From: Pseudohongiella sp.
Lineage (GTDB): Bacteria; Pseudomonadota; Gammaproteobacteria; Pseudomonadales; Pseudohongiellaceae
Direction of reading: 5' to 3'
Length of the DNA: 33,950 nucleotides
Assembly: GCA_030652635.1 (NCBI GenBank)
Contig: JAUSPW010000620.1
Location: 1-33,950 of the forward strand
Positions 10,071 to 25,584 of the stretch are shown here, piece by piece (the stretch's first letter is position 1; each line of letters begins with the position of its first letter). Below the pieces are notes generated by a model. The model was not told where the DNA came from and ran no database searches. It was given only the letters and a program-made list of their open reading frames with translations. The position numbers and the translations under genes were made by a program.

Positions 10071-13000
10071 TTAACCCAGTTGGAGAACTGGAGCTGCTGC
10101 GTTGCTGAACGATGCTGCGCTGAGGTCAACCAGACCAGCCAGTTTCACAATCAGGTCAGTACCGTTATTGAACGATGCACCAGCACTTCGGTCCATTACA
10201 ATGTAGGTATTGCCATCTGTGAACTGGAACCAGCTGATTGCGCCGTTCACACTGCCGTCACCGACTGATGCGAGGTTAGCGTAATCCTGGAATACCGCAG
10301 TGCTGCCCAAGGTCAACTTGGCGCGAGCAAAGGTTTCTGTACCCTGGTTAGCGAACTCGATCTTGTCGCCAGCTGCTGCGTCAAGGATCGTGCTGTATAC
10401 GTTAACGTTGGCACCTGCAGTACCGATTACAAACGTGTCTGCACCAGCACCACCTTCCAGCTGAGTCAGTCCTGCGTTAGCGATCAGTCTGTCGTTACCG
10501 GCTCCACCTCTCAGGGTATCCGCAACAGTACCTGTTGACGCTGTCAGGGTGTCTGCACCAGAACCACCAGTAATGGTTGTTGCAACGGTACCGGCCGCTG
10601 TCACAGTCAATGCACCGGTCATTGCTGACGCATCAATTGTTTTCAGTGCTACGTTACCCGCGTTGGTCAGATTCAAACCACCGTTGCCTGACAAAGTTAC
10701 TGATGTTGCTTTAGTAGCAACCAGAGTAGCCGTATGAACCGCATCAAATGCAGTTGCTGAGTCAGTTGAAGTGATGTTGATTGTTTCGACGTTTGCAGCA
10801 GTGATAGTACCGAATGCAGTTGTTGCAGCATTGGTCAGCACTATGTTCAACACATCAGCTGTACCAGTTGCAGCATCTTTGATCTGAACTGTCTGTGCTG
10901 TTGCAGCAGCGTTCAGTGTCAATGTGCCACCAGAAGCCAGCTTGTCGATGGTCAGTGTGCCGCTACCAATTACCTTGGTGTATCCACCCAAGGCTTCAAC
11001 GTCAACCGTTGCACCAACGCCACCTGTCAGTGACACCACTTCAAAACCGGTGACTTTGCCAGCAAATGCTGCTGAGTCATCGGCAGTTGCAGCATCAGCA
11101 GCAACCATAACCAGTGTGTCTTCGCCGTCACCACCAGAGATCGCGCCAGTTACTGCAGTAGTACCTGCAGCCAGTGTCAGCACATCGTTACCAGCACCCA
11201 AGGAAATTGCCTTGGATGGAGCAACAGTGGTCAGTGTTACAGTGTCAACGCCGCTGCTACCGGTGTAGGTTGCTTTGGTGCCGTCGATTGATGCAGTGAT
11301 TGCACCAGAAGTGCCACTCGCATTGATGCTAGTGATTGTTGCTGCATCACCAGCAGCCAGTTTCAGGCCTGCGGTACCAGTAACAGTTACAGACTTGACT
11401 GCACCTAGTGCGCCACCAGATATATCCAACACTTTGTCACCCGCCACTGACAATGTTTCAACACCGCCTGCAGTCATGGTGAATGTAGAGTTGCTGCCAG
11501 TTGCGTTCACGTTAACAGTTTTGTACGTGCCACCGAGGTTTACTGCACCGTCAACCTTGTTAAGGGTCAAGCCGAGTGTAGTTGCCTTGGTGTTAGTGAC
11601 AGTGAATGAACCTTTGCCAGCATTGGTCAGAGACAACGATGTCAACGCATCTGATGTTACAGAGCCGTTAGCGCCGTAACCGCTGACAGAAACAGTTGCA
11701 ACGGTATCAGTCGCGCCGCCGTCAGTGATTGTGACGTTGCCGTTAACAACACCTGCGTTACCCGCAACTGCAGCAGATGCTGTTGCACCTGTAGTAGTCA
11801 CAGTCTGAGATGCAGCGCCACCAGCAATAACCAGAGCAGCTGGGCCAGTCACGGCAGTGTTATGAGTGAATGACACTTTGTCCGCTGCAGATGCGCCAGA
11901 AGCGTATGTTGCAGTGTAAGAACCTGTGTACGTACCCAGTGTTGAACTACCCTGTGTTGCACCAGTAGTCAGGTTTGCAAACGCAGAAGCAACTTGAGCA
12001 GCAGTCATTGCTGCAGTCGCTGTGAAGGTCAAACCGCCAACAGTGGCAGTGCCAGCAGCAGCCAGTGCAGTGAAAGTAACCTGAGTTACTTCAGTCGCAG
12101 CAACAACGGCAGCCTTGGTTGCAGCAGCAGTTGCAGCAGCAGTCTGTGTTACTGACACAGTGGTTGCTTTGTTGCCGTCTACAGTGATTGCACCAACTGT
12201 GTTGGTTACGTTGATACCGTTAGTGCTGTTTACGGTTACATCGATTGATGAGCCGCCAGTCACTTTTACAGCACCACCAGCGATCGCTGCAGTACCAGCC
12301 AAGTTCTGAACAACTGTAACTGCACCCGTTGCCGCAGTAGTCTGACCTACGTTCACAGCACCAGTGCCATCAGAAGTTGTTGTCAGGCTGACAGAAGAAC
12401 CACCATCGATCGTGGTTGTTGCAGCACCCTGGTCTGTATCAACAACAACGATTGCGCCTTTTGAACCAGACAGCGTTACGCCGTTATCAACTACACCAGC
12501 GCCTTTTGAGGCTGTTACAGTTTGTGATGCACCGCCAGTCACTTTTACCAAGCCACCCGCGCTGGCAGTAACAACTGCCTGAGCATCGCTTGCTGTCAAG
12601 GTTACTGTGCCTGTTGCATTGGTCACGTTAACTGCAGTCAAACCAGTGATGTTGGAACCAGTGGTATCCAGTGTTACGGTACCAACAGATGCCAGATTTA
12701 GTGTTTCAACGTTCTTGATGGTCAGACCACCTGGCAGAGCTGAACCACCGCCCACAGCCACGTCATTGATATTCAAGGTGTCTTTACCAGCACCACCGTC
12801 GATGTTGTCCAGACCAGTCAGGGTTGCAGTGCCACCCAATTGACCGTTGATGATGTCATCACCCGCGCCACCAACAACAGTATCAACTGCTGCAGTCAGA
12901 GCCAGAGTTTTTGGATCGTAGAATGCTGGCAGCGGCGCAGCAGCAGCGACATCTGCATCAGCCTGAGTGCTCAGACCGTTTACAGTAGTGACGCGTGCAT

Positions 13001-24139: not shown

Positions 24140-25584
24140 TGCCCATGAAACGTGTTCCCGAGTATTTCTGTAAGGCATCAAATGCTGGCATGGCCTGCTT
24201 GACACTTGGCAGCGCTGGTCTGCTGTTGATTGCGACTCTTGGCGCGATGGCACCCGCTCACGCACAAAACCCAGCCCAAGCTCAGCATACTGCCGCAGAT
24301 AATCAGGTCAGTAACACTGCGCTTGAAACGGGTATTGGCCAAACACTGGAGGATTTTTTTACTGCAGCACTGGAATACAGCCCCAGACTCCAGGTTGCTG
24401 AAGCAAAGCGTGATATTGGTGCTGCCCGTCGACGCAGCGCCAACGGACAACTTCTACCGCAAATCAGTGCAAGCGCAAGTATTTCTGACAATCGACAAGA
24501 TGCCTTGAATCGCATCAGTGAGTACCGCGGTGAACGGCTGGCGCTGGTGCTGCGACAAGTGCTGTTTGACTGGCGAGTTTTTTCTCAGCGCGGTCAAGCA
24601 TATGCCTTGGAAAATCAGCTGGAAGCAGAGTACTTCGCAGAGCTGTCTGTAGTACTGACCAGCGTAGCGGAACGTTATTTTGATGTGCTGCAAGCCGAAG
24701 ATGCTCTGAGATCCATACAGTCTGAAAGGGAATCTGTTCGCAATCAGGTCAGTCAGGTTGAAAGATTGTATGGATTACAAATGGCACAGATTACCGACCT
24801 GTATGATGCTCAGGCACGCTTGTCGGCAGTCGAGGCTGAAGAACTCTTGTTGTCCAGCGATGTGACACTGACACGCGATGCGCTGCGATCAGCCACCGGC
24901 CTCGGTGTCGGTAGTTTGTACGTGCTTGGCGAGGGCTCAGCACTGCCAGAAGTCGATGGCAATCTGGAAGATTGGGTACAACGGGCACGACAGGGCAACC
25001 ATCAGATCCGGGCGCGTGAATACTCTGTCGAAATTGCTGACCGTCGAGTGTCTGAGCAACGCGGAGCTTACCTGCCGCGCGTCAACCTAGTTCTTCAGCA
25101 GCAACGCTCAGACCTAGGCTTCGATAACGTTCCCATCAGTCGAACGGACAGCGGCTATGTTGGTCTTGATATTTCAGTGCCGCTGTTTGCCGGCGGTTCT
25201 ATTAGAGCCGGCGTCAGCGAAGCTGTCAGTCAACAGTCAATTGCGCGCAGTGAACTGCGGCAGCTGAATCTTGATGTCAGCGAACAAACTCGCTTGTCGT
25301 TTTTGCGCCTGAAAGCTGCTGAACGTCAGATTGAAGCGGCAGAAAAACTATTGGAATCGCGCACGCTTGCAACCACCGCAAGACGACGAGGTTTTGAATT
25401 AGGGACCGTTACCAGTGTGAGTGTACTGGACGCAGTACGAGAACAGTTTATGGCTGAGCGCGATCTGCAGCGAATTCGTTACGACTATATCCGCCTGAGC
25501 TTGTACCTGCGACGCGATGCCGGAGTGCTTACCTCGGATGATTTGATTGATATTGGCAATCGACTCGATCTGCCCGCGCAGTAG
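24139..25584 (+). CDS. TolC-family outer-membrane protein (PrtF/RsaF-like)
   Basis: Signal region, LLPQI, L.Q.LFD, AERYF.VL, YLPRV.L, VPLFAGG and GFELG; start overlaps the MFP stop. Confidence 0.92.
   Translation: MPMKRVPEYFCKASNAGMACLTLGSAGLLLIATLGAMAPAHAQNPAQAQHTAADNQVSNTALETGIGQTLEDFFTAALEYSPRLQVAEAKRDIGAARRRSANGQLLPQISASASISDNRQDALNRISEYRGERLALVLRQVLFDWRVFSQRGQAYALENQLEAEYFAELSVVLTSVAERYFDVLQAEDALRSIQSERESVRNQVSQVERLYGLQMAQITDLYDAQARLSAVEAEELLLSSDVTLTRDALRSATGLGVGSLYVLGEGSALPEVDGNLEDWVQRARQGNHQIRAREYSVEIADRRVSEQRGAYLPRVNLVLQQQRSDLGFDNVPISRTDSGYVGLDISVPLFAGGSIRAGVSEAVSQQSIARSELRQLNLDVSEQTRLSFLRLKAAERQIEAAEKLLESRTLATTARRRGFELGTVTSVSVLDAVREQFMAERDLQRIRYDYIRLSLYLRRDAGVLTSDDLIDIGNRLDLPAQ

What the first reader, a model, noticed from the sequence alone, without database searches (positions are those of the whole stretch)
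10071..25584. Candidate dedicated trans-envelope cyclic-nucleotide circuit controlling an S-layer and its secretion system
Seen: four signalling genes (FecR-linker protein, CHASE2 cyclase, TPR-beta-barrel OMP, divergent Crp) lie between an S-layer gene and its T1SS, and CRP boxes precede the S-layer gene, the signalling operon and the T1SS operon. Known: Sinorhizobium meliloti uses CHASE2 cyclases (CyaD1/D2/K), the Crp-like Clr and the TPR/beta-barrel NsrA in symbiotic signalling; Caulobacter rsaADE has no such embedded cassette. Inference: a surface-to-cytoplasm relay (OMP > FecR protein > CHASE2 cyclase > Crp) that may sense surface or S-layer state and switch on S-layer synthesis and export, with positive feedback. 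I know of no description of this wiring.
Basis: partly seen in the sequence, partly recalled or inferred. Interest (0 to 1): 0.93.

Follow-up and report, generated by a model that had tools for sequence, protein, structure and literature searches.

The report
S-layer switch with rewired cyclase-Crp pair
A conserved four-gene envelope sensor (Slam-type pore, its predicted FecR-headed cargo, a CHASE2 membrane protein and a Crp-type regulator) likely switches on the neighbouring surface-layer gene; in this lineage the cyclase and the regulator have both lost their cAMP residues, which a sister lineage keeps, so the signal likely passes by direct contact or by a new messenger.

Summary
Observation confirmed; interpretation partly. 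The eight genes and three CRP-type boxes are present. The order crp | fecR-cyclase-OMP | box | RTX surface gene recurs in 20 of 20 family stretches and across Burkholderiales, Rhodocyclales and Marinomonas. Boxes sit at class II activator distance from a -10 element. In 5 of 10 genomes lacking an adjacent S-layer gene, the single perfect box still precedes an S-layer-type gene elsewhere. Two corrections. The OMP is a divergent Slam (type 11 secretion) pore and the FecR protein ends in a TbpB/NHBA-type cargo barrel. And this is probably not a cAMP circuit: cyclases lack the catalytic Asn and base-selecting Lys (0 of 111); Crp lacks the R-S-A phosphate motif (0 of 103 pairs). A Massilia/Duganella-type sister clade has the same cassette with intact residues (19 of 19) and boxed T1SS genes (14 of 14). 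The T1SS box here is lineage-restricted (3 of 21). The scan noted this cassette before on other DNA; the intact sister clade, unlinked-box test and promoter geometry were not in the notes shown to me. Nothing is tested experimentally.

The parts
10071..14525 (-). RsaA-like RTX surface (S-layer) protein, 1484 aa, with a long Ala/Thr-rich insertion after the N-terminal domain
   Evidence: RsaA E 2e-61, residues 518-655 and 924-1475; N-terminal domain has no RsaA match
14612..14617 (-). -10-like hexamer TATTCT, 30.5 bp from box centre (class II geometry)
   Evidence: same spacing (29.5-30.5) in 48 of 78 homologous promoters
14640..14655 (.). perfect Crp box before the S-layer gene, consensus TGTGAY-N4-RTCACA
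14814..16271 (-). divergent Slam/T11SS-type outer-membrane protein: signal peptide, TPR domain, 14-strand barrel
16338..18332 (-). inner-membrane CHASE2 protein (1+3 hydrophobic segments) with a remodelled class III cyclase-like domain: D475, D519, R598 kept; E515 for Lys, T594 for Asn (numbering from GTG 18350)
18335..19945 (-). secreted FecR-head / Pro-rich linker / TbpB-NHBA-type handle and 8-strand barrel protein; conserved Gly-Thr motif
19977..19982 (-). -10-like hexamer TAGGAT, 29.5 bp from box centre (class II geometry) for the fecR operon
   Evidence: 56 of 126 homologous promoters at 29.5-30.5
20004..20019 (.). Crp box (1 mismatch) between fecR and crp
   Evidence: 71 of 75 genome loci
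20130..20831 (+). Crp-family regulator; recognition helix R191-E192-R196 intact, phosphate-binding motif R-S-A replaced by Q-P-E
20827..20842 (.). perfect Crp box overlapping the crp stop codon, 59.5 bp from TATAAT at 20894-20899 (class I, -71.5); in 3 of 21 family genomes
21004..25584 (+). type I secretion system: PrtD-type ABC, HlyD adaptor, TolC
7533..9977 (-). SapC-family gene and methyltransferase gene downstream of the S-layer gene, recurring beside it in distant loci

Best explanation
The cassette is likely a dedicated trans-envelope switch for the surface-layer gene: a Slam-type pore is predicted to export the barrel end of the FecR protein, whose head would stay in the periplasm and contact the CHASE2 domain, and the cyclase-like domain, which lacks the cAMP-making residues, would control the Crp-type regulator without cAMP, most likely by direct binding. 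Shown by sequence and models: gene order, Slam homology, cargo-type barrel, lost catalytic and ligand residues, boxes and their class II spacing. Strongly inferred: the local Crp binds TGTGAY-N4-RTCACA and activates the S-layer gene and the fecR operon (positive feedback on the sensor; crp itself has a plain sigma-70-like promoter). Inferred only: export and tethering of the FecR protein, FecR-CHASE2 contact, the stimulus (surface contact or S-layer coverage), and direct cyclase-Crp contact. The ancestral form, kept in the Massilia/Duganella-type clade, would use cAMP.
For: Synteny: crp divergent in 73 of 75, cyclase in 73 of 73, OMP in 63 of 65 genome loci with enough flank. Box after OMP against next gene, 66 loci: box + RTX/S-layer-like gene 47, neither 10, discordant 2, contig ends 7; background 42 of 2430 windows. 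Unlinked test: of 10 genomes with no S-layer gene after the OMP, 5 hold exactly one perfect extended box and all 5 precede an S-layer-type gene. S-layer genes of 3 genomes without the cassette have no box (G811, G774, G597). OMP barrel against SlipAM hits: hhalign 96-99%, reversed control under 2%; Atlas 0.99 to SlipAM clusters. FecR model: PupR Z 15.6, NHBA Z 12.5, TbpB Z 9.5, adhesin periplasmic plug 5IX9 Z 10.8 (plug role in PMC5550230). Co-loss: 103 of 103 paired loci lack cyclase Asn and Lys and Crp R-S-A; 19 of 19 sister pairs keep all; both trees put the degenerate proteins in one clade beside the canonical cassette clade. Seven loci lose even a metal Asp, and one pair (L353/L366) has decayed further on both sides yet keeps helix, box and surface gene. 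A cyclase-Clr contact is published (PMC10463352, abstract).
Against: No expression, binding or mutant data. The remodelled domain gained near-invariant polar residues (N478 74/74, H496 73/74, R584 74/74, H586 71/74) and keeps both Asp and Arg in most members, which fits new chemistry as well as a binding scaffold. The genome has a canonical CRP and two canonical cyclases that could read the boxes. Pfam SlipAM is not hit by any of 83 or 61 OMP sequences. In S. meliloti the FecR-domain gene smc02177 was not needed for signal perception (PMC5498481, passages). Five of the 10 test genomes had no perfect box, and two S-layer genes in genomes with a cassette-type Crp lack one (G567:C71, G653:C13). 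Crp-tree support for the degenerate clade is only 0.73. Loci are related, so counts are not independent.
Confidence: 0.45

Rival explanations
1. Same relay and targets, but the remodelled domain is an active enzyme making a messenger other than cAMP, read by the remodelled Crp pocket: a private channel insulated from the global cAMP-CRP system.
For: Metal Asp pair kept in 106 and 108 of 111, Arg in 109 of 111; new invariant N, H, R, H in the domain; it is the best conserved part of the protein (0.63 against 0.57 for CHASE2); Crp gained invariant D88, R135 and mostly E94.
Against: The base-selecting position drifts (E 54, N 16, Q 12, A 10, H 8, others); the positions that hold triphosphate-binding Arg and Lys in the sister clade are G565 and L636 (roles recalled); 7 loci lose a metal Asp.
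Confidence: 0.28
2. One reading: an ordinary cAMP or cGMP circuit, with a weak but real cyclase and a cNMP-binding Crp.
For: Fits the sister clade fully. The window enzyme has Glu at the base position, as in PDB 2W01, its best hit (that 2W01 is the guanylyl cyclase Cya2 is recalled). Some class III enzymes work without the Asn (recalled).
Against: Asn 0 of 111, Lys 0 of 111; Glu not conserved; Crp Arg present in 10 of 130 and then mostly as R-P-D; Clr needs G85, E86, R95, S96 for both nucleotides (PMC10127613, passages).
Confidence: 0.1
3. The boxes are real, but Crp is ligand-independent or the global CRP reads them; the Slam-FecR-CHASE2 trio is co-regulated with the S-layer and does not signal to Crp (for example the FecR protein is fully secreted or helps surface assembly).
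For: Canonical CRP in the same genome; smc02177 dispensable for perception (PMC5498481); soluble Slam cargo is released whole (10.1101/2023.03.29.534853, passages); G653 and G702 separate Crp, cyclase and surface gene.
Against: Crp stays beside the trio in 73 of 75 loci; cyclase and Crp change state together; many genomes hold just one perfect box, at the S-layer gene, unlike a global regulon.
Confidence: 0.17

Closest known systems
Sinorhizobium meliloti NsrA - CyaK/CyaD1/CyaD2 - Clr pathway
   Same: Outer-membrane barrel, CHASE2 class III cyclase and Crp-family regulator in one signalling route; a FecR-domain gene (smc02177) in the regulon (PMC7529298, PMC13001267, PMC5498481; passages).
   Different: NsrA is about 1200 aa with the barrel at 600-1200, here 439 aa mature and Slam-like; Clr binds cAMP/cGMP and GTNNC-N4-GNNAC, here an E. 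coli-type helix and box; output is a surface protein and T1SS; cyclase and Crp residues are lost here.
Type 11 secretion (Slam/DUF560) with TbpB, LbpB, fHbp, NHBA, HpuA, hemophilin cargo
   Same: TPR + 14-strand barrel homologous to SlipAM proteins; adjacent gene with C-terminal handle and 8-strand barrel.
   Different: Cargo head is a FecR-type domain on a 39-162 aa linker, no lipobox; linked to a membrane sensor. The T11SS surveys read by term search do not mention FecR, CHASE or cyclase (PMC8406197; 10.1101/2024.09.26.615229; main text only).
Campylobacterota CHASE2 cyclase + FecR + TPR + phosphodiesterase cluster (PMC9239204)
   Same: Three of the four gene types clustered and proposed to act in one pathway.
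   Different: Has a phosphodiesterase; no Crp, box or S-layer link in the passages read; none seen in this cassette.
Caulobacter rsaA-rsaDEF and Campylobacter sap locus
   Same: RsaA-like C-terminal domain, PrtD-type T1SS, SapC-family gene nearby.
Cell-surface signalling (FecA-FecR-FecI, PupR, FoxR)
   Same: FecR periplasmic fold and Gly-Thr self-cleavage motif (145 of 146; PMC12036975, passages).
   Different: No membrane anchor beyond the signal peptide, no anti-sigma domain, no ECF sigma or TonB receptor in the locus.

Membership tests
Active class III adenylate cyclase | Two metal-binding Asp | tested here: met
   D475, D519; 106 and 108 of 111
Active class III adenylate cyclase | Adenine-selecting Lys | tested here: not met
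   E515; Lys in 0 of 111; 19 of 19 in sister clade; role recalled
Active class III adenylate cyclase | Transition-state Asn and Arg | tested here: not met
   Asn 0 of 111 (T 82, S 27, 2 other); Arg 109 of 111; role recalled
Active class III adenylate cyclase | cNMP synthesis | not testable with these tools
   needs enzyme assay
cAMP-activated CRP | cNMP-binding fold plus HTH with R180/E181/R185 | tested here: met
   R191, E192, R196 in 130 of 130
cAMP-activated CRP | Phosphate-binding Arg-Ser (R82/S83; Clr R95/S96) | tested here: not met
   Q92-P93-E94; R-S/T-A in 0 of 103 pairs; PMC10127613
cAMP-activated CRP | TGTGA-N6-TCACA sites at class I/II distance | tested here: met
Slam / type 11 secretion system | N-terminal TPR and 14-strand barrel | tested here: met
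   model; no Slam chain among listed PDB hits
Slam / type 11 secretion system | Homology to SlipAM (DUF560) proteins | tested here: met
   hhalign 96-99%, E 3e-9 and 3e-18; Atlas
Slam / type 11 secretion system | Pfam PF04575 hit | tested here: not met
   0 of 83 and 0 of the 61 in listed families; genome search blank, with no positive control ringing
Slam / type 11 secretion system | Adjacent cargo with C-terminal 8-strand barrel | tested here: met
Slam / type 11 secretion system | Slam-dependent export of the cargo | not testable with these tools
   needs secretion or surface-exposure assay
RsaA-type S-layer protein | RsaA C-terminal assembly domain, RTX motifs, T1SS beside it | tested here: met
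RsaA-type S-layer protein | RsaA N-terminal LPS-anchor domain | tested here: inconclusive
   no sequence match; no model made
RsaA-type S-layer protein | Crystalline surface lattice | not testable with these tools
   needs microscopy
NsrA-CyaK-Clr pathway | cAMP as messenger to a Clr-type receptor with Clr box | tested here: not met
   residues and box differ
NsrA-CyaK-Clr pathway | OMP homologous to NsrA | not tested
   NsrA sequence not fetched; primary paper not held
FecR anti-sigma factors | Membrane-anchored anti-sigma domain with ECF sigma and TonB receptor | tested here: not met
   one N-terminal hydrophobic segment only; no such genes in the locus

The most novel reading that the evidence does not exclude
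A cAMP circuit for S-layer control was rebuilt once in evolution into a private channel: a type 11 secretion pore holds its FecR-headed cargo across the outer membrane as an antenna for the state of the cell surface, and the cyclase domain and its Crp changed together to make and read an undescribed second messenger.
Probability: 0.2. Interest if true: 0.93.

Novelty: new variant of a known kind. Interest (0 to 1): 0.74.

Why it matters
How Gram-negative bacteria regulate their most abundant surface protein is poorly known, as is the input to CHASE2 sensors (own knowledge). This cassette offers a concrete sensor, regulator, operator and target in culturable, harmless genera (Pseudohongiella, Marinomonas, Massilia, Duganella). 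It suggests a signalling job for type 11 secretion. The paired clades, one with intact cAMP residues and one with both partners remodelled, give a ready comparison for asking how a second-messenger link is replaced by a pseudo-enzyme contact or by a new messenger.

Tried and rejected
Complex prediction of cyclase domain (2 copies) with Crp (2 copies): no answer, score 0.08 against a mark of 0.32; not evidence either way. FecR-CHASE2 and OMP-FecR complexes were not folded (one job only). RNA runs: no RNA holder listed. Rfam: no match in 9000-26000. Fold searches of the OMP gave generic 14-strand porins (CymA Z 20.8, OmpG Z 19.2) and TPRs; no Slam chain was listed. cGMP specificity was considered because of E515 and dropped because that position drifts. 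A family-wide T1SS box was rejected for this clade. Lipoprotein status of the FecR protein rejected: lipobox-like pattern in 7 of 146, inside signal peptides in the 7 printed. Atlas search of the cyclase domain gave only generic PF00211 clusters. Literature: CHASE2+FecR+cyclase gave 3 papers, 2 listed; DUF560+FecR 0; S-layer+CHASE2 0; S-layer+rsaA+cAMP receptor protein 1 unrelated review; S-layer+Massilia+cAMP 1 unrelated abstract book; pseudoenzyme/adenylate cyclase/Crp/CHASE2 nothing on this system by listing. Open-licence papers only; bioRxiv supplements of the T11SS survey were not seen and could list these OMPs.
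Full report
Observation. The ORFs and domains are as described. The large gene matches Caulobacter RsaA over its C-terminal part (E 2e-61) and is followed by SapC-family and methyltransferase genes. The three secretion genes pass NCBIfam cut-offs for PrtD, HlyD and TolC types. Named close homologues come from Pseudohongiella, so the window is most likely from that genus. The boxes lie at 14640, 20004 and 20827; two of the genome's six perfect TGTGA-N6-TCACA sites are in this locus.

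Conservation. The cyclase orthologue was found in all 20 other genomes of the genus and in 9 of 15 further family genomes (strong hits). I fetched 20 of these 29 neighbourhoods; all 20 keep S-layer gene, OMP, cyclase, fecR, crp and prtD-hlyD-tolC in order, some with insertions, plus the S-layer box and the fecR box. A scan with a distant FecR alignment returned 80 genome and 80 metagenome loci from Burkholderiales, Rhodocyclales, Marinomonas, Methylobacter, Sulfuricella and others. Among genome loci with enough flank, crp is divergent in 73 of 75, a box lies between in 71 of 75, the cyclase follows in 73 of 73 and the OMP in 63 of 65. These loci are related and capped, so the counts show conservation, not independent trials.

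The boxes are probably functional and follow the surface gene. After the OMP, box and RTX/S-layer-like gene occur together in 47 of 66 genome loci, are both absent in 10, disagree in 2 and cannot be judged in 7 (classes set by my own profiles and RTX patterns). Background was 42 of 2430 windows. I then searched 10 whole genomes that lack a surface gene after the OMP: 5 had no perfect TGTGAY-N4-RTCACA, 5 had exactly one, and all 5 lie 100-470 bp before an S-layer-type gene, three of them on another contig. S-layer genes in 3 genomes without the cassette had no box; two in genomes with a cassette-type Crp also lacked one. A TANNNT hexamer starts 29.5-30.5 bp from the box centre in 48 of 78 surface-gene and 56 of 126 fecR promoters, the class II activator position (position rule recalled); towards crp only 12 of 124 do. 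Targets are not always RsaA-like: one 1993-aa RTX protein had no PDB hit and one is a cadherin/Ig adhesin. The T1SS box is weaker: 3 of 21 family genomes, left half made by the crp stop, but with constant -71.5 spacing; 0 of 30 other prtD genes have one within 400 bp, though four Ramlibacter/Burkholderiaceae loci have a perfect box before a small gene that leads the T1SS operon.

Envelope part. The OMP folds as TPR plus 14 strands. Pfam SlipAM misses it, but its barrel aligns end to end with SlipAM-positive proteins (15 sequences 99%, five strongest 96%, reversed control under 2%), and the Atlas places it beside SlipAM clusters. The FecR protein has a signal peptide, a head like PupR (Z 15.6, rmsd 2.3, 133 aligned), a linker of 39-162 aa (median 82) and a C-terminal domain like NHBA (Z 12.5, rmsd 3.2, 134 aligned), TbpB, fHbp, HpuA and hemophilin. 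That barrel is the shared mark of Slam cargo (10.1101/2023.03.29.534853 and 10.1101/2024.09.26.615229, passages). Part of the head resembles the periplasmic plug of an RTX adhesin (5IX9, Z 10.8, rmsd 2.0, 75 aligned; PMC5550230, passages), which suggests by analogy a tether with the barrel outside and the head inside. Full release is the alternative. The Gly-Thr self-cleavage motif of FecR (PMC12036975, passages) is kept in 145 of 146.

Cytoplasmic part. Of 128 cyclase-like proteins, 111 aligned over the catalytic domain. None has the Asn or the base-selecting Lys; the metal Asp residues and the Arg mostly stay. Of 135 Crp proteins 130 aligned: the DNA-reading R-E-R is invariant, while the phosphate-binding Arg is mostly Q or A. 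In 103 loci with both, none has Asn, Lys or R-S-A. Residue roles in cyclases are recalled; those in Crp are in PMC10127613 (passages). A second tier of Crp hits in a 251-genome sample revealed a sister cassette, found in 29 of 151 genomes of one family, whose relatives are named Massilia, Duganella, Pseudoduganella and Janthinobacterium. There all 19 full-length cyclase-Crp pairs recovered are canonical (the script missed three Crp motifs that one search prints; a twentieth, more distant pair, L385, was left out). A box precedes fecR in 21 of 21 stretches, a perfect box follows it in 21 of 21 with a surface-type gene behind it in the 18 that could be read (DUF4214 in 6 of 6 scanned), and 14 of 14 prtD genes have a box (one of these, G653, has no cyclase beside its Crp). 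Trees of both proteins group the degenerate forms together beside this clade (supports 0.99 and 0.73; subsets of 51 and 58 sequences). The remodelled clade also gained invariant residues in both proteins, so this is remodelling under selection rather than plain decay.

Mechanism. Most likely (0.45) the relay ends in a non-catalytic contact between cyclase-like domain and Crp; a cyclase-Clr contact is published (PMC10463352, abstract only). A new messenger (0.28), decoupled co-regulation or control by the global CRP (0.17; the genome has one) and ordinary cNMP signalling (0.10) are the rivals. That the local Crp activates the surface gene I put near 0.85. The stimulus is unknown.

What is known. 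The parts echo the S. meliloti NsrA-CyaK-Clr route (PMC7529298, PMC13001267, passages) and a Campylobacterota CHASE2-FecR-TPR cluster (PMC9239204, passages). Against the relay, the S. meliloti FecR-domain gene was not needed for perception (PMC5498481, passages). Searches found no description of this wiring in the open-licence library; PMC8406197 was read by term search only. The scan reported the S-layer-linked cassette and the Slam-FecR-CHASE2 trio before on other genomes; I reached the residue loss before and the cargo fold.

Verdict. Real, conserved, not found in the papers searched, a new variant of a known kind. Interest 0.74.

Noticed in passing
   Followed up: yes
L318 (G000:C85) 2127-4737 and L320 (G000:C359): A second Slam-like OMP plus FecR pair and a canonical cyclase fragment elsewhere in the same genome.
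   Followed up: no
L349:8979-11074; similar in L109, L112, L141, L147: An ABC-2 permease plus ATPase pair (Wzm/Wzt-like) often follows crp on the same strand; polysaccharide or LPS anchor export may be co-regulated. The window has rml and glycosyltransferase genes at 27796-33674.
   Followed up: partly
L135, L184 (Accumulibacter): Cassette and boxes kept but crp moved away (found on another contig in G573, not found in G572); the fecR box faces a T1SS operon with two prtD genes.
   Followed up: partly
L353 and L366 (G814:C13): Cyclase without its first metal Asp and a Crp with a decayed pocket, yet recognition helix, box and a 2513-aa surface gene are kept.
   Followed up: partly
window 12900-14000 (-): Ala/Thr-rich insertion of about 350 aa in the S-layer protein; homologues range from about 720 to 2500 aa.
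   Followed up: no
G000:C14:4002 and G000:C262:3403: Two more perfect extended boxes, with similar sites in several genus genomes, before genes without Pfam hits; possible further targets or global CRP sites.
   Followed up: partly
window 2885-2900: One-mismatch box between the EAL/GGDEF gene and rep, recurring in several genus genomes.
   Followed up: no
window 125-936 (-): TacA-type antitoxin and GNAT gene pair, likely a toxin-antitoxin module.
   Followed up: no
window 25597-27078 (-): M10-family metalloprotease-like gene converging on tolC, conserved in the family.
   Followed up: no
L100 and L105: Short FecR-only genes between a 2600-aa gene and a SapC gene, without a cyclase nearby.
   Followed up: no
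L294 (G570): The boxed S-layer gene is split into two overlapping frames in this assembly.
   Followed up: no
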